Of a stretch of DNA of 64,000 bases, positions 5,469 to 11,456 are shown in pieces; position 1 is the stretch's first letter, and each line of letters begins with the position of its first letter. A program made the position numbers and the translations under genes. Source of the stretch: Candidatus Latescibacterota bacterium (GTDB lineage: Bacteria; Latescibacterota; UBA2968); contig OZ242195.1 in assembly GCA_965205975.1 (NCBI GenBank), forward strand, positions 352,001 through 416,000, read 5' to 3'. The notes under the pieces are model-generated. The model had not been told where the DNA came from. It did not search any database and saw only the letters and a program-made list of their open reading frames with translations.

Positions 5469-7643
5469 TCACAGCAAAGTTCCCTGAACAGGTTCTTCGA
5501 CAATTCCAGCTCGAATGCGCTGAGATAGGGTCGTGTGTCGCTCTGCAACCCGATTGTTGCGAACAGCCATCCCCAGGGCTTGTTTTGTGCCTACCAGCAC
5601 GACCAGTTCTCGCGCCCGCGTGATGGCCGTGTACAACAAGTTGCGCTGTAACATCATATAGTGCTGCGTGGTCAAAGGCATGACTACGGCGCGAAATTCT
5701 GCACCCTGGCTCTTGTGTACACTCATGGCATAGGCCAGCACCAACTCGTCCAATTCCGAGAACTCATATTCTATGACGCGGTCCTGAAATCGCATGTGCA
5801 ATATATCGTCTTCTATTCCGAGAACGCGTCCAATATCTCCATTAAAAACATCGCGGTCATAGTTATTCCGCACCTGCATCACTTTGTCGCCCACCCGAAA
5901 GCGAATACCGCCCCGCGTCATCTCCTGTCCTTTGGGATTCAACTCGTCTTGCAAGACCTGGTTGAGATTGTTCGCGCCGGTTTCCCCTCGATACATCGGT
6001 ACGAGTACTTGAATATCTTCAATACTGTCCAACCGATATGTGCGCGGCAAACGTGCAGCACACAATCCACAAACCATCTCGACGACCTGATTGGGTTCCG
6101 AGACTTCGATAAAAAAGAAATCCGCATCGCGGTCATTTTGCACGTATGGCATTTCGCCGCGATTGATCGCGTGGGCATTGGTAACAATATGGCTCGTTTG
6201 TGCCTGTCGAAAGATCTCGTTGAGTTCCACGACTTCTACCGTGCCAGATGCAATGACATCCTTCAACACATTTCCCGCGCCAACCGATGGCAACTGATCG
6301 ACATCGCCTACCAGGACTACCGAAGCACTGATTGGTACAGCGCGCAATAGACTGTTCATCAGAACTGTATCGACCATGGATATTTCATCGACAATCAGAG
6401 CATCAATTTCCAGAGGATTATCAAAATTTTTCTCAAACGCCATTTCAGATGGGCTAAATTTTAGCAATCTGTGGATGGTTTTGGCCTCATGCCCGGTTGC
6501 CTCAGACATTCGCTTGGCCGCGCGTCCCGTTGGTGCTGCCAGTGCGATTTTTTTCTTTCGCGCCTCTAAAAGTGCGATCAGCCCTTTAATGGTCGTTGTT
6601 TTACCCGTTCCGGGACCACCCGTCAGGACCAGCAAATTGTGCGACAATGCCTTTTCCAATGCCAATTTTTGACGGGGCGCAAATGTTACCCCATCGCGCT
6701 GTTCTATGGCTCTGACTTCCGCCGGGATATTGCCGAGTTCAATGCGTTGCACCTGGGATAATTGATAGCACCGCGTTGCCGCGCCCTGTTCGGCATAGTA
6801 CAAATGCGGCAAATACACCCGCTCATCATTGGCGACAATCGATTCTTCGGAGAGCAGTTGTGCTACACACGGTGCGATTGCATCGACGGGTACATCGAGT
6901 GCTTCGGCACAAGATTCGATGAGCGCGTCTTCAGGCAAGAATACATGTCCTTCTTTGTCTGCTGCTTCGTTGAGGACATGCAAAAGACCAGCTTGAATGC
7001 GCCGGTCTGAATGCGCGGGGATGCCCATTTTTTGCGCGATGCGGTCTGCTGTCAGAAATCCAATGCCCCAAACATCTACTGATAGGCGATAGGGATTTTC
7101 CCGAATTAATTCAATGGCTTCATGCCCGTACCGTTTCCATATTTTTACGGCGTATCCCGTGCCTACTTCGTGCGATTGCAAGAATAGCATTACATTGTGG
7201 ATCTCGCGCTGGTCTTCCCAGGCTTTGATAATCCACTTTGCGCGTTTGGCTCCCAATCCTTCGACTTCGACTAATCGCTCGGGATCTCTTTCGATGACAT
7301 CGAGAGCTTCTTTGCCAAAGTGATCCACAATCCGCTTTGCCGTGACTGGCCCGATGCCTTTGATCAATCCCGAACCCAAATATCGCCGCATTCCCTCTAC
7401 CGTAGATGGATATACGGTCTGGTAGGATTCAATTTTGAACTGTGCCCCATATTGCTTATGGGTTGTCCATTCGCCTTCCAAAATCACGGTCTCGCCCGGG
7501 TTGATCGACAGCATTTCGCCCACAATGGTCGCCAGACGGTTGTTGTATGCGGTGGATCCCTCTACCTGCAAACGGGCAATCGTGTATCCATTCTCTTCGT
7601 TTTGAAATGTAATGCGATCTACAATTCCGCGAAGCTGAGCCAT
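5469..7643 (-). CDS. recD2: ATP-dependent RecD-like DNA helicase (RecD2/SF1B)
   Basis: N-terminal HhH region (YLGSGLIKGIGP), Walker A GGPGTGKTT, LAAPTGRAAKR, VDEISM, GDVDQLPSVGAG, AYAMSVHKSQGAE, LLYTAITRA. Confidence 0.95.
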   Translation of the reverse strand: MAQLRGIVDRITFQNEENGYTIARLQVEGSTAYNNRLATIVGEMLSINPGETVILEGEWTTHKQYGAQFKIESYQTVYPSTVEGMRRYLGSGLIKGIGPVTAKRIVDHFGKEALDVIERDPERLVEVEGLGAKRAKWIIKAWEDQREIHNVMLFLQSHEVGTGYAVKIWKRYGHEAIELIRENPYRLSVDVWGIGFLTADRIAQKMGIPAHSDRRIQAGLLHVLNEAADKEGHVFLPEDALIESCAEALDVPVDAIAPCVAQLLSEESIVANDERVYLPHLYYAEQGAATRCYQLSQVQRIELGNIPAEVRAIEQRDGVTFAPRQKLALEKALSHNLLVLTGGPGTGKTTTIKGLIALLEARKKKIALAAPTGRAAKRMSEATGHEAKTIHRLLKFSPSEMAFEKNFDNPLEIDALIVDEISMVDTVLMNSLLRAVPISASVVLVGDVDQLPSVGAGNVLKDVIASGTVEVVELNEIFRQAQTSHIVTNAHAINRGEMPYVQNDRDADFFFIEVSEPNQVVEMVCGLCAARLPRTYRLDSIEDIQVLVPMYRGETGANNLNQVLQDELNPKGQEMTRGGIRFRVGDKVMQVRNNYDRDVFNGDIGRVLGIEDDILHMRFQDRVIEYEFSELDELVLAYAMSVHKSQGAEFRAVVMPLTTQHYMMLQRNLLYTAITRARELVVLVGTKQALGMAVRNNRVAERHTTLSQRIRAGIVEEPVQGTLL

Positions 7644-7695
7644 GTAAAACCTCGGCGAACATGTTCTCCCATCACACAATCGGAGGGGTAGAGGA

Positions 7696-7724
7696 ATTAT
7701 ACGACACTTGCCGCGGTTTTACAA
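7696..7724 (-). promoter_or_regulatory. sigma70-type promoter for recD2
   Basis: Minus strand TTGTAA (7724-7719), 17-nt spacer, TATAAT (7701-7696). Confidence 0.7.
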
Positions 7725-7804
7725 GTTGTATCAAATTTGCAGTACACAAAATGTATAAAATCCGTATATTGTTGAAACACAACATTTAACGGCTACGTCA
7801 TAAC

Positions 7805-8109
7805 GGAAAAGAGGTTGGCCCAAAAGCTATTGACACACCGCATGTACCTGTCGGTGTGATCTGGGGTCCTCGCGCCGTCCCGCCAAGAACTCGCGCGAGG
7901 GCCTTTCTTTTTGGTACACGAAATGGTTGCCCTCGGGCCAACCAGGTCACAAATTGAAATTTTTCCGAAAAACAAAAAGCACCTACCCGTCCCTTCACCA
8001 AATCGCCAATTTTGACGCAAGGAACAAGCAGGTGCCTCGTGGACTGGTATGGCAACGCTGCTGAAACGCTGGGCGTTCCGAAAATATTGTTTTTTTTACA
8101 GGCCAGTCG
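7805..8109 (-). ncRNA. Candidate structured non-coding RNA (~300 nt, two domains, pseudoknot); family not recognised
   Basis: 15-bp and 17-bp stems that pair fully only on the minus strand through G-U pairs, two further hairpins, 8-bp loop pairing, dedicated promoter, U-rich 3' end. Confidence 0.65.
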
Positions 8110-8115
8110 GCAGAA

Positions 8116-8144
8116 AATATAGCCAATCTTATATTTGGGGTCAA
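8116..8144 (-). promoter_or_regulatory. sigma70-type promoter pointing into the ncRNA candidate
   Basis: Minus strand TTGACC (8144-8139), 17-nt spacer, TATATT (8121-8116). Confidence 0.7.
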
Positions 8145-8189
8145 GGGAGAAAATGGATTGGGGCTCGTAGATATGATTGAGGATAAAAA

Positions 8190-8810
8190 ATGAAGCGGTT
8201 TCTCATCGTTGTTTTACTCGGATTGATATGGACAGCTCATGCTGAAGAGGATCGCAAGACGGTTTTGTTTTTGGGAGATAGCCTGACCGCGGGTTATGGT
8301 CTGGATAAAACGCAGGCTTTTCCCGCGCTGATTCAGGCAAAGATTGATTCGCTCGGGTGGGCGTTTGATGTGATCAATGGCGGACTGAGTGGCGAAACAT
8401 CGGCGGGAGGGTTGCGGCGGGTCAACTGGTTGCTGCGGCGAAAAATCGATGTGCTGGTGCTGGCATTGGGGGGCAACGATGGCTTGCGGGGGATTCCCAC
8501 GACTGAAATGCAGCAAAATTTGCAGGGGATTATAGATCGCGCAAAAGAGAAGTATCCAGATATTCAGATCATACTTATGGGTATTGAAGCACCGCCAAAT
8601 TTGGGAGATATATATACGACGGCTTTCCGTGCGGTGTTCCCTGCTCTATCTGAAAAGAATCGCGTGCTTTTGATCCCCTTTTTGTTAGAAGGGGTTGGTG
8701 GGATTCCAGAACTGAATCTGCCAGACCGCATTCATCCCAATGCTGCGGGACATCGGATTATAGCGGAAACCGTGTGGCGTGTGCTTAAACCGATTCTGGA
8801 AAAGCGGTGA
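8190..8810 (+). CDS. tesA: Arylesterase / acyl-CoA thioesterase I-like SGNH hydrolase
   Basis: Signal peptide; GDSLTAGYG, SGETSAGGL, LGGNDGLRG, DRIHPN; linked to YbbA/YbbP-like ABC genes. Confidence 0.9.
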   Translation: MKRFLIVVLLGLIWTAHAEEDRKTVLFLGDSLTAGYGLDKTQAFPALIQAKIDSLGWAFDVINGGLSGETSAGGLRRVNWLLRRKIDVLVLALGGNDGLRGIPTTEMQQNLQGIIDRAKEKYPDIQIILMGIEAPPNLGDIYTTAFRAVFPALSEKNRVLLIPFLLEGVGGIPELNLPDRIHPNAAGHRIIAETVWRVLKPILEKR

Positions 8811-8866
8811 GAGGTGAGAAGTGAGACTAAGTACACAACACCCCCGAGTTCCCAGCTCCTCTTTTT

Positions 8867-8895
8867 CATCTGCGTCATCTGCGTCATCTGCGGAT
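8867..8895 (+). repeat. 9-bp tandem repeat (ATCTGCGTC) between convergent genes
   Basis: atctgcgtc atctgcgtc atctgcgga. Confidence 0.7.
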
Positions 8896-11456
8896 CACAC
8901 TTCGCTTCGCAAAATTTCGAGTGGAGGGCGGTCGGCGATGCCCCGGCTATTGAGCATGCCGACAAAGATGGTGAGCGCGGTGACGAGGATAAAGACACCG
9001 GCAATGGCCGCAGTGGGCAGGGCAAAGTGGACGTCAAAAATAAAGATGGTGACAGCCCAGGCACCGCCAATAGAGAGTATGAGTCCAGTCAGGGTAGCGA
9101 GTGCGCCCAGGAAGGTGTATTCCAGCAAGAGTATGCGGCGAATCTGTTTTTGAGATGCCCCCAAAGTACGCAGCAAAACGGCTTCACGAATGCGTTGATA
9201 GCGGCTGGTGGTGACTGCGGCAGTTAGTACAATGAGTCCGGTAATCACACTAAAGAGAGCCATGAAGCGCACGACAAAGGCGATTTGTGAGAGTACATCG
9301 TCAACAGTTTTGAGAATGAGGCCGAGGTCAACAGCCGATACATTGGGGTATTGTTGAACCAGTGTGCGTTGCAGTATAGCTGATTGTTCGGTTGTGTTGA
9401 TGCGCGTGGTCAAGACGTGAAACTGGGGAGCGGTTTCGAGCACGCCTTTGGGAAAGACGATAAAAAAGTTTGGCTGAATGCGCTGCCAATCAACTTCTCG
9501 CAGGCTTTGTACTGTGGTCTGAACGGGTACGCCCTGGATGTCGAAGGTCAGGGTATCGCCGAGCGAGACGCGAAGCGAACGGGCAATGTCGCGCTCAAAA
9601 GAAATGGGGATGGGTTCTTCTGTCCGTTCTGCATCGATCCAGGTGCCGCCTACAAGACGTTCTGAATCGAAGAGGTGATTTCGATAGGTCGAGCGGTATT
9701 CGCGTTGAATTGCCCAGCGCCGCACATCGTGTATTCTGCCATAGGAACGCGCCTCTTGACCTTTGATGCTCTTCAGACGCATGGTGACGATGGGGGCATG
9801 GTGGATGACGGGGAGGCGCTGTTTGCGGAGCAACGCGCTCACGCCTTCAATTTGATCAGTTTGCACATCGACGAGAACAAAGTTGGGACGGTTGTCGCTC
9901 CCCGCGATGGCAATTTGAGCGAGCAGGGCGTGTTGCACAATATAGAGCGTGGTGATGAGGAAGGTACCCAGGCCCAGTGCAAGCATGAGAATTACGGTCT
10001 GATTGTGTGGGCGGTAGAGATTGGCCAGGCCCTGTCGCCACACGTATTGCCAGGTTGTGGGAAAGAAGCGGCGAACGGTTTTGATGATGAGCCACGATGC
10101 GCCTATGAGCAGTCCAAAGGCAATGCCAAACCCGATGGCAATGCCAATTCCAATGAGGATACTGCTGGTTTGCACAATGCCTAATCCCGCGACTATGAGA
10201 CAGATCCCGCCGATGGTCATTAATTGTAGGGGGTCTATTTTGGATCGCACATTTTCAAAAGATGCCCGCAAGGTGTGCAGGGGAGATGTGCGGCGAATGG
10301 GCAATAGGGGGAGCAGGGCGAAGAGCAGCGACAGACTCAGGCCAATGCCTGTGCCCTGAATGATCGCCCAATAGGAAAACTGAATATCGAGTTCAATGGG
10401 CAGGATTTGTGCGAGAATACCGGGCAGGAGATACTGAATGCCCACACCGAGGAGAGAACCGCATCCCGTGCCAATAAGACCCAGCGCGATGGCCTGGATG
10501 GCGTAAATGCAGAGGATCTGATTCGATTGCGCGCCCATGCAGCGCAGGATGGCGACGGTTGTTATTTTTTGGCGCGTATAGACGTGAATAGCACTGGCAA
10601 CGCCGATACATCCGAGTAAGAGGGCGGCAAAGGCGACCAGACTGAGGAAGATGTAGAGATTGTCCAATATGCGGTTGAGGCGTCTTTGACGGCTGGCAAC
10701 GGTTTCAGTACGCAAATTTTGATCCCCGCGATAGGGGCGAAGTTCGCGCTGGATGGATCCGATTCTCGTGCTGCTATCAAACTTAAAATAGGCCACATAA
10801 GACGCCAGACTGCCAAATTTGATGAGACCCGTTTTATCGAGATGCGATAAGGGGATGTACACACGCGGTGCCACTGTGGTAAAGGCCATGGCCTCGCCCG
10901 ATATTTTTGTGATACGTCCGCCTATGACAAAGGTGTGGTTGCCAATTCGCACGGAATCGCCGACCTGAACGCCAAATTGGACGAGCAAGCCGTCGTCGAG
11001 GAGCGCGTGATGGGTATGCTGAAAGGTCTTCGACGCTTGTAGTGGATTGGTTTCAAATGTGCCGTAATAGGGAAAGTCGCCTTGTAGCGCGCGCACTTGT
11101 ACCAGACGGGTTCCGCCGTTTTTGGGAAAGAAGACCATCGAGGCAAAGCGCACTTCTCGGGATTGTTCCCCACCCCATGAGTTGAATAGGGAGTCAACCG
11201 CAGGCGCAAAAGCGCGCTGGCTGCTGACGCGCAAATCAGCACCTAAAAGTGTGCGTGCTTCATTTTCGACAACGCGTTGCAGGTTATCGCCGAGCGCGCG
11301 CACAGCTACGAGGCCACCCACGCCGAGCAATATGCAGGATATAAAGAGCAGCAATCGGCGGCGATACGTGCGGCTATCGCGCCAGGCCATGCGCCAGGTC
11401 CAGGCGTTGAAGAGTGGGCTGGAGGTCTGATTTTTAATGCTGGTGATTCGATCCAT
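8895..11456 (-). CDS. ABC transporter permease, FtsX/MacB-like (YbbP family)
   Basis: WRMAWRD, LLGADL, two FtsX-like halves (AILRCMGA; LLRTLGAS), many transmembrane segments. Confidence 0.9.
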   Translation of the reverse strand: MDRITSIKNQTSSPLFNAWTWRMAWRDSRTYRRRLLLFISCILLGVGGLVAVRALGDNLQRVVENEARTLLGADLRVSSQRAFAPAVDSLFNSWGGEQSREVRFASMVFFPKNGGTRLVQVRALQGDFPYYGTFETNPLQASKTFQHTHHALLDDGLLVQFGVQVGDSVRIGNHTFVIGGRITKISGEAMAFTTVAPRVYIPLSHLDKTGLIKFGSLASYVAYFKFDSSTRIGSIQRELRPYRGDQNLRTETVASRQRRLNRILDNLYIFLSLVAFAALLLGCIGVASAIHVYTRQKITTVAILRCMGAQSNQILCIYAIQAIALGLIGTGCGSLLGVGIQYLLPGILAQILPIELDIQFSYWAIIQGTGIGLSLSLLFALLPLLPIRRTSPLHTLRASFENVRSKIDPLQLMTIGGICLIVAGLGIVQTSSILIGIGIAIGFGIAFGLLIGASWLIIKTVRRFFPTTWQYVWRQGLANLYRPHNQTVILMLALGLGTFLITTLYIVQHALLAQIAIAGSDNRPNFVLVDVQTDQIEGVSALLRKQRLPVIHHAPIVTMRLKSIKGQEARSYGRIHDVRRWAIQREYRSTYRNHLFDSERLVGGTWIDAERTEEPIPISFERDIARSLRVSLGDTLTFDIQGVPVQTTVQSLREVDWQRIQPNFFIVFPKGVLETAPQFHVLTTRINTTEQSAILQRTLVQQYPNVSAVDLGLILKTVDDVLSQIAFVVRFMALFSVITGLIVLTAAVTTSRYQRIREAVLLRTLGASQKQIRRILLLEYTFLGALATLTGLILSIGGAWAVTIFIFDVHFALPTAAIAGVFILVTALTIFVGMLNSRGIADRPPLEILRSEV

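What the first reader, a model, noticed from the sequence alone, without database searches (positions are those of the whole stretch)
7805..8144. Stand-alone ~300-nt pseudoknotted ncRNA candidate with its own promoter, upstream of recD2
Seen (minus strand): promoter TTGACC-17-TATATT (8144-8116). 5' domain: outer stem 8084-8076/7970-7962 and a 17-bp stem 8035-8019/7995-7979 (GCACCUGCUUGUUCCUU/AAGGGACGGGUAGGUGC, 4 G-U). 3' domain: 15-bp closing stem 7943-7929/7827-7813 (3 G-U) enclosing hairpins 7900-7893/7875-7868 and 7858-7852/7840-7834; the loop of the latter (GGUACAUG) can pair with single-stranded CGUGUACC (7920-7913), an 8-bp pseudoknot. It ends in UCUUUU. All non-canonical pairs are G-U on the minus strand and would be A-C on plus, which indicates selection on RNA. 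recD2 has its own promoter (7724-7696), so this looks like an independent transcript rather than a leader. I see no hallmark of tmRNA, RNase P, SRP or common riboswitches. Inference: an unrecognised ncRNA class, a highly divergent 6S-like RNA, or the RNA part of a trans-acting system.
Basis: partly seen in the sequence, partly recalled or inferred. Interest (0 to 1): 0.85.

Follow-up and report, generated by a model that had tools for sequence, protein, structure and literature searches.

The report
Two-module regulatory leader RNA, Latescibacterota
The flagged stretch is a real, conserved, folded RNA with its own promoter. It is built from two separate RNA modules that, in related uncultured bacteria, sit directly in front of antibiotic-resistance-like and stress-response genes, so it looks like an undescribed RNA switch rather than a housekeeping RNA.

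Summary
The RNA is real, but it is not one new 300-nt fold. It lies on the minus strand of a Candidatus Latescibacterota genome and has two independently conserved modules. No search against Rfam matched either module.

**Module A (about 8110-7966)**
- It starts at a conserved TTGAC-17-TATATT promoter.
- It has an invariant closing helix, an A-rich strand and a covarying hairpin.
- It is mostly single-copy, in 34 of 151 sampled genomes of the phylum.
- In relatives it abuts start codons of GNAT, ABC-exporter and small helix-turn-helix (HTH) genes. Chloramphenicol-phosphotransferase-like, TyrRS and MacB-like genes lie a few hundred bases further down.

- It recurs in this genome before an ECF sigma operon.
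- In relatives it precedes APH(6), ABC-F-like and other genes.
- It was found in 30 of 151 sampled genomes.

**What held and what did not**
- Covariation supports both modules.
- The pseudoknot is limited to part of the genus.
- The closing stem is specific to the genus.

**Reading**
- Most likely this is a signal-responsive attenuator cassette, signal unknown. In this genus it has lost its original gene and now lies upstream of recD2.
- A stand-alone, trans-acting role for this orphan copy is not excluded.
- It is not 6S-like.

The parts
8116..8144 (-). Sigma-70-type promoter: -35 TTGACC (8144-8139) and -10 TATATT (8121-8116). The inferred transcription start is about 8111-8108.
   Evidence: Scan, 10 of 12 matches. 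A TTGAC box and a -10-like hexamer stand at the same distance before module A in most genera shown, while the spacer diverges; G054 has TTGCC. One RNA-library contig ends at 8096.
7966..8110 (-). Module A, a promoter-proximal structured RNA ending in an intrinsic terminator.
- P1: GACUGG 8108-8103 with CCAGUC 8047-8042.
- Conserved A-rich strand: 8099-8085.
- Covarying hairpin: 8079-8073 with 8069-8063.
- AGCAG 8062-8058 and UGCC 8054-8051, a possible antiterminator strand.
- Terminator stem: 8038-8019 with 7995-7976.
- U-run: to about 7966.
   Evidence: Alignments A2 and A6. In 26 sequences, 96% of cells are paired and 17 of 30 pairs change on both sides; 0 of 500 shuffles reach this (the alignment was fitted to the model). 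Model R2 hits 34 of 151 phylum genomes, mostly one copy each. Identity within the genus is 0.934, against 0.80 at recD2 third codon positions.
7944..7965 (-). Variable linker between the terminator and the 3' domain.
   Evidence: Identity 0.77, about the neutral level. Its length ranges from about 60 nt to 220 nt between genera.
7813..7943 (-). Genus-specific closing stem (7943-7929 with 7827-7813) that encloses motif B.
   Evidence: The 11 inner pairs (3-13) are kept in 17 of 17 genus sequences, and pairs 1-2 in 15 and 16 of 17. Five positions vary with pairing kept, and none changes on both sides. It is not evident in two other genera.
7834..7903 (-). Motif B.
- P1: 7903-7894 with 7874-7865.
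- Internal loop: CGA opposite GG.
- P1a: GUUC 7890-7887 with GGAC 7880-7877, capped by the conserved loop UUGGCG.
- Conserved linker.
- P2: CACACCG 7858-7852 with CGGUGUG 7840-7834, with the conserved loop start ACAGGUA.
   Evidence: A second copy lies at G000:C1:2320236-2320314, at 91% identity, before an ECF sigma operon. In 32 sequences, 86.6% of cells are paired and 12 of 21 pairs change on both sides; 0 of 500 shuffles reach this (fitted alignment). Model R1 hits 30 of 151 genomes. Identity within the genus is 0.995.
7807..7812 (-). UCUUUU run after the closing stem, a possible 3' end.
   Evidence: Seen in the sequence. A U-run also follows the stem in the most distant genus member. RNA-library contigs of two studies end at 7797, which is a weak hint only.
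7745..7805 (-).
   Evidence: Shared with another genus, where it precedes a truncated GNAT-like ORF, and with the most distant genus member. Identity 0.916. Its function is not studied.
7696..7724 (-). Promoter-like site TTGTAA-17-TATAAT before recD2.
   Evidence: Scan, 10 of 12 matches.
5469..7643 (-). recD2 helicase gene. The start is probably the ATG at 7643 (MAQLRGIVDRITF...), not 7679.
   Evidence: Pfam hits AAA_19, HHH_RecD2, OB_YrrC and SH3_13. Homology to sister species begins at 7643 in two and at 7653 in the third. The ATG was located.

Best explanation
The region encodes a promoter-driven composite leader RNA. It is made of two regulatory RNA modules that were found only in Latescibacterota-labelled records in the searches run.

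**Module A** works like a terminator-type riboswitch or attenuator.
- A structured sensor domain starts at the transcription start.
- A strong conserved terminator hairpin follows it directly.
- The hairpin's 5' strand (GGCA.CUGCU) can pair instead with the sensor's 3' strand (AGCAG...UGCC).
- With the terminator formed, a short RNA of about 135-145 nt results. With the alternative pairing, transcription reads on.

**Motif B**, about 70 nt, is a second recognition element for an unknown ligand or protein. In mRNA leaders it is usually preceded or overlapped by a short translated reading frame.

**Context in relatives.** A, B, or A followed by B stand before several gene types:
- drug-modifying enzymes: APH(6), GNAT, chloramphenicol-phosphotransferase-like;
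- ABC-F-like, ABC and MacB transporter genes;
- a spare-looking TyrRS, small HTH regulators and ECF sigma operons.

The signal is therefore probably a xenobiotic or translation stress.

**In this genus** the cassette has lost its original downstream gene and lies, as part of an inserted block, upstream of recD2. It is still under strong selection.

**Shown:** the structures, their conservation, the promoter, the gene contexts in relatives, and presence in RNA libraries.
**Inferred:** termination and antitermination, the nature of the signal, and any control of recD2.
For: **Structure and conservation**
- The fold is strand-specific.
- Module A: 96% of cells paired, 17 of 30 pairs with changes on both sides, 0 of 500 shuffles as high, and slid controls at 40-50% paired.
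- Motif B: 86.6% paired, 12 of 21 pairs with changes on both sides, 0 of 500 shuffles as high.
- Identity in the genus is 0.934 for A and 0.995 for B, against 0.80 at recD2 third codon positions and 0.77 in the linker.
- The promoter boxes are conserved across families.

**Leader position in relatives**
- Start codons with Shine-Dalgarno (SD) sequences follow the module A U-run within 11-60 nt.
- Pfam names for genes downstream of A are: GNAT, ABC_membrane(+ABC_tran), CPT, MacB_PCD/FtsX, PcfJ and TyrRS.
- Downstream of B are: ECF sigma, APH_6_hur (4 loci), ABC_tran+ABC_tran_Xtn and Glyoxalase.
- The tandem A then B recurs in four genera and in one metagenome contig. Degenerate A-like terminators precede B at APH(6) loci.

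**Alternative pairing**
- The alternative pairing is possible in about 20 of 26 sequences, and one position covaries (U-A or C-G).

**Transcription**
- Contigs from four RNA-library runs of two studies cover 7692-8096 and cross the module A terminator.
- None of those contigs covers the divergent GDSL gene.
Against: - In this genome no ORF follows the cassette closely. recD2 starts about 165 nt after the U-run at 7807 and has its own promoter-like site.
- Three sister species have recD2 without the element, so control of recD2 is not ancestral.
- The closing stem plus U-run, and contig ends at 7797 in two studies, fit a discrete RNA.
- The antiterminator is only suggested. Its bases are mostly invariant, and 6 of 26 sequences mismatch at the covarying position.
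- The terminator scan did not list the hairpin.
- Contigs cannot show strand, ends or single molecules, and DNA can be present in RNA libraries.
- The pair counts come from alignments fitted to the models and from related genomes, so they overstate independence.
- No ligand or binding protein is known.
- The resistance-like gene names are Pfam family names, not tested functions.
Confidence: 0.55

Rival explanations
1. Stand-alone trans-acting small RNA. In this genus the orphaned cassette is kept as an RNA of its own, either about 140 nt ending at the first terminator or about 300 nt ending at 7807. One possible role is a decoy that titrates whatever binds motif B in the ECF sigma leader. Another is base-pairing through the A-rich strand.
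For: - It has its own promoter and two terminator-like ends.
- No adjacent ORF follows, and the element is absent upstream of recD2 in three sister species.
- Motif B is almost invariant, at 0.995.
- The same motif occurs in the highly covered ECF leader.
- The closing stem plus U-run is genus-specific.
- Contigs of two studies end at 7797.
- In two genomes of another genus the next full-length gene is convergent.
Against: - Elsewhere both modules are plainly leaders that abut start codons.
- In the other genus a truncated GNAT-like ORF still follows.
- One RNA-library contig runs on into recD2.
- No target or binding partner was identified.
Confidence: 0.3
2. Leader-peptide (ribosome-mediated) attenuator, or a small protein gene. 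On this reading, the conservation of motif B reflects a translated peptide such as ..ERPSRE(S/F)LAGRREDP.SHRQV...
For: - ECF-operon copies in the family have a conserved SD plus ATG 35 nt before the motif core. Their differences from the window copy in P1 are synonymous in that frame.
- Other leader copies also carry SD plus short ORFs before or into the motif.
- The window copy has an in-frame GTG (ATG in one species) 10 nt after GAGGG or GAAGG.
Against: - Frames and stop positions differ between lineages. There is an early TGA in three species, another frame in a second family, and 1-nt indels. Even so, the nucleotides stay conserved.
- The window-type copy lacks a start in 2 of 16 genus sequences (L003, L013), and in L003 a stop follows at once.
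- Module A has no conserved start codon.
- Compensatory changes and G-U pairs fit an RNA structure.
Confidence: 0.08
3. Divergent 6S-like or other housekeeping RNA.
For: The 6S model RF00013 finds nothing in this genome even at E up to 1, so 6S is unaccounted for. The RNA has its own promoter.
Against: - There is no rod-with-bubble fold. Two separate modules occur with different distributions, in 34 and 30 of 151 genomes.
- Motif B is multi-copy and both modules sit as leaders before ORFs.
- Three species of the same genus lack it.
- SRP RNA is found elsewhere in the genome.
- The 6S model rang in only 5 of 14 control genomes, so its silence says little.
Confidence: 0.03
4. Functionless remnant of a leader whose gene was lost, or a DNA-level element such as operator palindromes.
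For: The cassette sits in an indel block, and its original gene appears to be lost.
Against: - Identity is 0.93-0.995 against about 0.80 at neutral sites, over 15 species.
- The G-U pairs and fold energy are strand-specific.
- The region is covered in RNA libraries.
Confidence: 0.04

Closest known systems
Terminator-type riboswitches before detoxification or efflux genes, such as guanidine-I (ykkC). This comparison is recalled from memory, not from a call.
   Same: Module A is a conserved structured domain at the 5' end of the transcript. An intrinsic terminator follows it directly, and it stands before varied transporter and modifying-enzyme genes.
   Different: It has no sequence or structure match to any Rfam family. 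The ligand is unknown. The terminator sequence itself is strongly conserved, which is unusual for an expression platform. There is usually only one copy per genome.
Ribosome-mediated attenuation leaders of antibiotic-resistance genes, such as erm, cat and ABC-F leaders. Recalled from memory.
   Same: The gene contexts are similar: APH(6), ABC-F-like, phosphotransferase and acetyltransferase. Short SD-led reading frames lie before or across motif B in the mRNA leaders.
   Different: Motif B has an invariant loop and linker sequence across families while the peptide frames differ. Module A has no reading frame. No stalling motif was identified.
Tandem, different-class riboswitch arrangements, and riboswitch-derived small RNAs such as Listeria SreA/SreB. 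Recalled from memory.
   Same: Two unrelated structured modules lie in series on one leader, and the first ends in a terminator that would release a short RNA.
   Different: Neither module has a known ligand. In this genome no regulated ORF follows closely.
6S RNA (Rfam RF00013)
   Same: It is a non-coding RNA of a few hundred nucleotides or less with its own promoter.
   Different: There is no model match and no rod-and-bubble fold. It is not universal in the genus or phylum. Its parts recur as mRNA leaders.
Leader switches before small DNA-binding regulator genes in Latescibacterota, noted earlier in this scan (e1-6794216, e1-6846517). These are unchecked AI notes.
   Same: I saw module A directly before a 57-67 aa helix-turn-helix-like ORF in seven genomes of another family.
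   Different: Those notes describe a tiny translated frame. I found none in module A. I could not compare the sequences: the look-up by sequence found no look-alikes.

Membership tests
6S RNA | Match to the Rfam 6S covariance model | tested here: not met
   There is no hit in the window at gathering score or at E up to 10. There is no RF00013 hit in the whole genome at E up to 1. The control rang in only 5 of 14 genomes.
6S RNA | Long rod with 5' and 3' ends paired and a large central bubble | tested here: not met
   The MFE and consensus folds give two side-by-side domains. The first closes on itself and ends in a terminator hairpin.
6S RNA | Housekeeping gene present throughout the lineage | tested here: not met
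   Module A is in 34 of 151 sampled phylum genomes and motif B in 30 of 151. Module A was not found in 4 of the 19 other genus members, three of which have single-contig assemblies 97-99% complete.
Riboswitch with terminator expression platform | Conserved structured domain supported by covariation | tested here: met
   For module A, 17 of 30 pairs change on both sides and 96% of cells are paired. For motif B the figure is 12 of 21 pairs. Both alignments were fitted to the models.
Riboswitch with terminator expression platform | Sits in the 5' leader directly before the controlled ORF | tested here: inconclusive
   This is met in relatives, where start codons lie 11-60 nt after the U-run. In this window the next ORF, recD2, starts about 320 nt after module A, behind motif B and a promoter-like site.
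Riboswitch with terminator expression platform | Mutually exclusive terminator and antiterminator pairings | tested here: inconclusive
   AGCAG..xGCC can pair with GGCy.CUGCU in about 20 of 26 sequences. One position covaries, but 6 sequences mismatch there, and most bases never vary.
Riboswitch with terminator expression platform | Direct binding of a small-molecule ligand | not testable with these tools
   This needs in-line probing or a similar assay.
Intrinsic terminator | G+C-rich hairpin followed directly by a U-run | tested here: met
   The stem 8038-8019/7995-7976 is followed by UUUUUGUUUUU. The hairpin plus U-run is kept, with compensatory changes, in all 26 aligned sequences. The consensus scan did not list it because its loop is longer than 8 nt.
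Leader-peptide (ribosome-mediated) attenuator | Conserved short ORF with an SD whose translation reaches the switching structure | tested here: inconclusive
   This is present in the ECF, APH(6) and other leader copies of motif B. The window copy has only a GTG without a strong SD, and it is missing in 2 of 16 genus sequences. Module A has none.
Leader-peptide (ribosome-mediated) attenuator | Conserved peptide or regulatory codons | tested here: not met
   Frames, stops and indels differ between lineages while the nucleotides stay conserved.
T-box leader (considered because of the TyrRS context) | Match to the T-box model or its conserved T-box sequence | tested here: not met
   There were no Rfam hits at E up to 0.5 on nine diverse loci, including a TyrRS-linked one.
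Dispersed repeat / MITE | Many copies per genome in either orientation, unrelated to genes | tested here: not met
   The whole element occurs once and motif B twice in this genome. Copies always point towards the next gene.

The most novel reading that the evidence does not exclude
Module A and motif B are two new classes of sensor RNA. They could be riboswitches, or binding sites for a so far unknown protein. They would switch on antibiotic-modifying enzymes, ribosome-protection-type and export genes, and an ECF sigma regulon in response to a translation-targeting compound or to translation stress. In this genus, the orphan A-then-B transcript has been kept as a trans-acting decoy that tunes the motif-B regulon. 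That would resemble CsrB/CsrA, but be built from a leader cassette.
Probability: 0.15. Interest if true: 0.85.

Novelty: new member of a known kind. Interest (0 to 1): 0.62.

Why it matters
Latescibacterota have no cultured member, and my two literature searches turned up no paper on RNA regulators in the phylum.

This finding offers two compact, well-conserved RNA modules with clear covariation, a defined promoter and terminator, and a coherent set of downstream genes. Those genes include aminoglycoside and chloramphenicol phosphotransferase-like enzymes, GNATs, ABC-F, exporters, an EF-G/TetM-like remnant, TyrRS and ECF sigma.

If either module binds a small molecule, it would be a new riboswitch class tied to antibiotic or translation stress. 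It could be tested directly in vitro without growing the organism.

If the orphan copy acts in trans, it would show how a leader cassette can turn into a small RNA.

If it proves to be only a protein-dependent attenuator, it is still a useful annotation for some 30-35 of 151 sampled genomes of the phylum.

Tried and rejected
- **Rfam.** The whole window at gathering score gave 0 hits. The region at E up to 10 gave only CRISPR-DR60 and an L19 leader at E about 9, which is noise. The second-copy locus gave a Thr_leader-like terminator at 33 bits, below the 55-bit cut-off, and not at the motif. Nine diverse loci gave 0 hits.
- **tRNA/tmRNA scan** of 7000-9000 found none.
- **6S and SRP in the genome.** 6S was not found. 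SRP was found elsewhere.
- **Peptide reading of motif B.** I considered it seriously and then set it aside as the main constraint.
- **Metagenome scan with the 20-nt motif-B core.** Most of the 80 fetched loci were chance matches. Only 6 gave strong full-length matches to model R1, and 6 more were partial or weak.
- **RNA-library contigs.** They show cover and bridging only. The missing cover of 8157-8400, and the contig ends at 8096 and 7797, are weak hints and no proof of transcript ends. The high-depth pieces at 7835-7913 belong to the ECF-operon copy, not to this locus.
- **Small helix-turn-helix protein as a possible partner of module A.** It was not found in this genome with one 57-aa query, which does not show absence.
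- **Earlier notes of this scan.** Nothing was recorded near the place or by sequence.
- **rRNA mimicry.** An idea that motif B mimics part of 16S rRNA came from inspection by eye. I dropped it because the words are not complementary or colinear, and the genome-wide DNA search found only the two copies.
- **Nucleotidyltransferase reading.** Reading the ORF after the tandem in one genome as a nucleotidyltransferase rests on a motif seen by eye. Pfam gave only a weak DUF4037 hit at E 0.004.
Full report
**Setting.** The window is G000:C1:352001-416000 of a single-contig 5.56-Mb genome with 51% G+C. Relatives carrying the same sequence are labelled Candidatus Latescibacterota MAGs. The finding lies in a 546-nt spacer between two genes. 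One is a plus-strand GDSL lipase gene (8190-8810). The other is the minus-strand recD2 gene, whose real start is most likely the ATG at 7643.

**Checking the observation.**
- The promoter TTGACC-17-TATATT (8144-8116) is found, and so is a second promoter-like site at 7724-7696.
- The minus strand 8110-7805 folds to -121.3 kcal/mol with z = -4.27. The plus strand gives z = -1.99.
- The 17-bp stem, the two small hairpins and the 15-bp closing stem are all in the MFE fold.
- Rfam gives nothing at gathering score for the whole window, and only E about 9 noise in the region.
- No tRNA or tmRNA is found.

**The region is two modules, not one fold.** A DNA search of 61 related genomes showed that the full 361-nt stretch is conserved at 90-98% in 15 species of the genus. 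Two further genus members hold only parts of it.
- A 79-nt piece of it (7913-7835) also occurs a second time in this genome, at G000:C1:2320236-2320314, with 91% identity. That second copy is present in most relatives.
- The second copy lies about 65 nt before a 65-aa ORF, which is followed by an ECF sigma factor gene.
- The 5' half has its own, wider set of homologues.

I call the 5' half module A and the recurring piece motif B.

**Motif B (7903-7834).** An alignment of 30 copies gives this layout:
- a 10-bp helix P1;
- an internal loop (CGA opposite G-purine);
- a 4-bp helix capped by the near-invariant loop UUGGCG;
- a conserved linker;
- a second hairpin, CACACCG/CGGUGYG, whose loop starts with the conserved ACAGGUA.

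Supporting counts and distribution:
- After a model search over 31 loci, 32 copies show 86.6% of cells paired and 12 of 21 pairs with changes on both sides. None of 500 shuffles reaches this, and slid controls give 34-49% paired. The alignment was fitted to the model and the genomes are related, so this overstates independence.
- Model R1 finds the motif in 30 of 151 sampled genomes of the phylum, mostly in one family (25 of 29), at 1-3 copies each.
- A stricter 24-nt pattern from the same core, scanned over 185,579 species genomes, hit 41 loci. Forty are labelled Latescibacterota or Latescibacteria and one only 'bacterium'.
Of the 80 loci fetched, only 6 were strong full-length matches to R1.

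**Is motif B a small gene?** I tested this because the ECF copy has AAGGAG-7-ATG and reads M.SVQTERPSRESLAGRREDPRSHRQVHAVFRII. The P1 differences between the two copies in this genome are all synonymous in that frame.
- The peptide does not hold up across lineages. Three species stop at a TGA between the hairpins.
- The ECF copies of a second family start from their own SD-ATG in another frame, and end before the motif or in the loop of P2.
- Several copies have 1-nt indels. All the while the nucleotides stay conserved.
- The window-type copy has only a GTG 10 nt after GAGGG or GAAGG. There is no start codon in 2 of the 16 genus sequences examined, and in one of these a stop also follows at once.

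So the constraint is on the RNA. A short translated frame before or across the motif is a recurrent feature of the mRNA-leader copies.

**Module A (about 8110-7966).** It begins at the inferred transcription start.
- A TTGAC box and a -10-like hexamer keep the same distance before it in most genera examined, while the spacer differs; one locus reads TTGCC.
- In 26 sequences from five families, 96% of cells pair and 17 of 30 pairs change on both sides. This includes A-U to G-C and C-G to U-A changes in the closing helix. None of 500 shuffles reaches this, and slid controls give 40-50% paired. The same caveat about a fitted alignment applies.
- Model R2 finds it in 34 of 151 sampled genomes, usually once per genome.
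Its 3' arm is in the only stretch that evolves at the neutral rate.

**What follows the modules elsewhere.** Open reading frames and Pfam searches support a leader role. Where an ORF starts 11-60 nt after the module A U-run, often with its SD right behind it, there is no room for another promoter. Transcription must therefore read through the hairpin.
- Genes after module A, abutting the U-run: GNAT acetyltransferases, two ABC exporters of the ABC_membrane type, a PcfJ-like gene, an ECF-sigma-like ORF (recognised by eye), and a 57-67-aa helix-turn-helix-like ORF in seven genomes.
- In three of those seven, a tyrosyl-tRNA synthetase gene follows the helix-turn-helix ORF.
- Further down lie a chloramphenicol-phosphotransferase-like gene (384 nt, behind an unnamed ORF) and a MacB/FtsX permease gene (207 nt).
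- Genes after motif B: the ECF sigma operon, the commonest case; APH(6)-type kinases at four loci; an ABC-F-like ATPase; and a glyoxalase-family gene.
- The tandem A then B recurs in four genera and in a metagenome contig. Downstream lie, respectively:
  - an unnamed 374-aa ORF;
  - a truncated GNAT-like ORF;
  - an internally deleted EF-G/TetM-like gene followed by a MacB-like gene.
- Degenerate A-like terminators also precede motif B at APH(6) loci.

The common thread is genes of the kind that answer antibiotics or translation stress. These are family names, not tested functions.

**The switch idea.** The strand AGCAG...xGCC, just inside module A, is complementary to GGCy.CUGCU, the 5' strand of the terminator.
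- The pairing is possible in about 20 of 26 sequences.
- The x-y position is U-A in this genus and in one genome of a distant family. It is C-G in most others, but mismatched in six.
- This fits an antiterminator but does not prove one.

**This genome in particular.** Within the genus, identity to the window is as follows:

| Region | Identity |
|---|---|
| recD2 third codon positions | 0.80 |
| Linker | 0.77 |
| Module A | 0.934 |
| Closing-stem arms | 0.92-0.95 |
| Motif B | 0.995 |
| Block 7812-7760 | 0.916 |

The element is therefore kept by selection.
- Three species of the genus lack it and have recD2 directly behind the MacB/FtsX permease gene. The GDSL gene plus the RNA (about 7644-8895) is thus an insertion or deletion block, and recD2 does not need the element.
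This suggests the cassette once served such a gene.
- The closing stem is specific to the genus. Its 11 inner pairs hold in 17 of 17 sequences and the two outermost in 15 and 16 of 17. Five positions vary with pairing kept, and none is compensated on both sides.
- The 8-bp pseudoknot is intact in 12 of 16 genus sequences. It is broken in four without compensation, is absent in the most distant genus member, and is absent from the other copies.

**Transcripts.** Four runs on record as RNA, from two studies and labelled sponge metagenome, hold contigs on the region.
- One contig spans 7500-8096 and ends 13 nt inside the predicted start. Others span 7692-8003, 7797-8060, 7797-8044 and 7948-8156.
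- Four of these five contigs cross the module A terminator.
- None of the contigs covers the GDSL gene.
- Two contigs from different studies end at 7797, just past the UCUUUU run.
- Contigs cannot show strand, ends or single molecules, and DNA may be present, so these are hints only.
- Much deeper contigs (34-100x against 3-10x) match only 7835-7913. They continue into the flanks of the ECF copy, so that leader is well represented.

**Other checks.**
- SRP RNA is found elsewhere in the genome. The 6S model finds nothing, but it also fails in 9 of 14 control genomes.
- The small helix-turn-helix protein was not found in this genome with one query.
- Two literature searches for Latescibacter* with 'riboswitch', or with 'noncoding RNA' and 'sponge', listed nothing on RNA elements of the phylum. 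I saw search listings only.
- Earlier notes of this scan describe leader switches before small DNA-binding regulator genes in other Latescibacterota. They may concern the module A arrangement, but I could not compare the sequences.

**Verdict.** It is a promoter-proximal attenuator-like module ending in a terminator, followed by a second, independently recurring motif.
- The family behaves as a cis-acting regulatory leader of stress and resistance-type genes.
- The copy in this genus is an orphan that is still under strong selection.
- It either feeds conditionally into recD2 or acts as an RNA in its own right. I put about 0.55 on the attenuator-cassette reading and 0.3 on a stand-alone trans-acting role.

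Noticed in passing
L021 1440-2460 (G000:C1:2320175-2321195): The ECF sigma operon has a long leader. An SD-ATG upstream ORF of 34 codons runs through the second copy of motif B. A 65-aa membrane-like ORF follows, then the sigma gene, then a 70-aa ORF with a weak MqsA-like zinc-finger hit. RNA-library contigs cover this leader at 34-100x.
   Followed up: partly
window 7644-8895: The GDSL lipase gene plus the RNA element is an insertion or deletion block. In three species of the same genus, recD2 follows the MacB/FtsX permease gene within about 30-60 nt.
   Followed up: partly
window 7643-7679: recD2 probably starts at the ATG at 7643, with GAGG 6 nt upstream. The longest ORF begins at the TTG at 7679, but homology to sister species starts at 7643 in two species and at 7653 in the third.
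   Followed up: partly
whole genome G000: No 6S RNA is detected with RF00013 even at E up to 1, so the 6S gene of this lineage remains unidentified.
   Followed up: no
L205 1083-700 (minus strand of the locus): After module A and two copies of motif B lies an EF-G/TetM-like gene reduced to its first 43 codons and its last 56 or so codons, in another frame (an internal deletion). A MacB-like permease gene follows.
   Followed up: partly
L025 (G052:C1:4144500-4149300): Here a 534-aa PcfJ-like gene separates module A from motif B, and an IS605 OrfB/TnpB-type gene follows the motif. This suggests a mobile insertion into the cassette.
   Followed up: no
L136 1656-1829, L139 1659-1847, L142, L268, L269: A family of 57-67-aa helix-turn-helix-like proteins (..ERVAR.Y.SNK.AS.ALGI....F.R.CR...I.TP..) sits directly after module A in another family of the phylum. 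A second paralogue occurs in one locus. In three genomes a TyrRS gene follows. Pfam gives no match apart from a weak RWP-RK hit.
   Followed up: partly
L183 862-1041, L022 about 1930-2110: A truncated GNAT (RimJ/RimL-like, ..VY.DPEV..) ORF of about 59 aa lies after the tandem cassette in another genus. This was recognised by eye only; Pfam finds nothing.
   Followed up: no
L021 2664-2788: There is a weak Thr_leader-like Rfam match (33 bits, cut-off 55) after the ECF operon. It is most likely just an intrinsic terminator.
   Followed up: no
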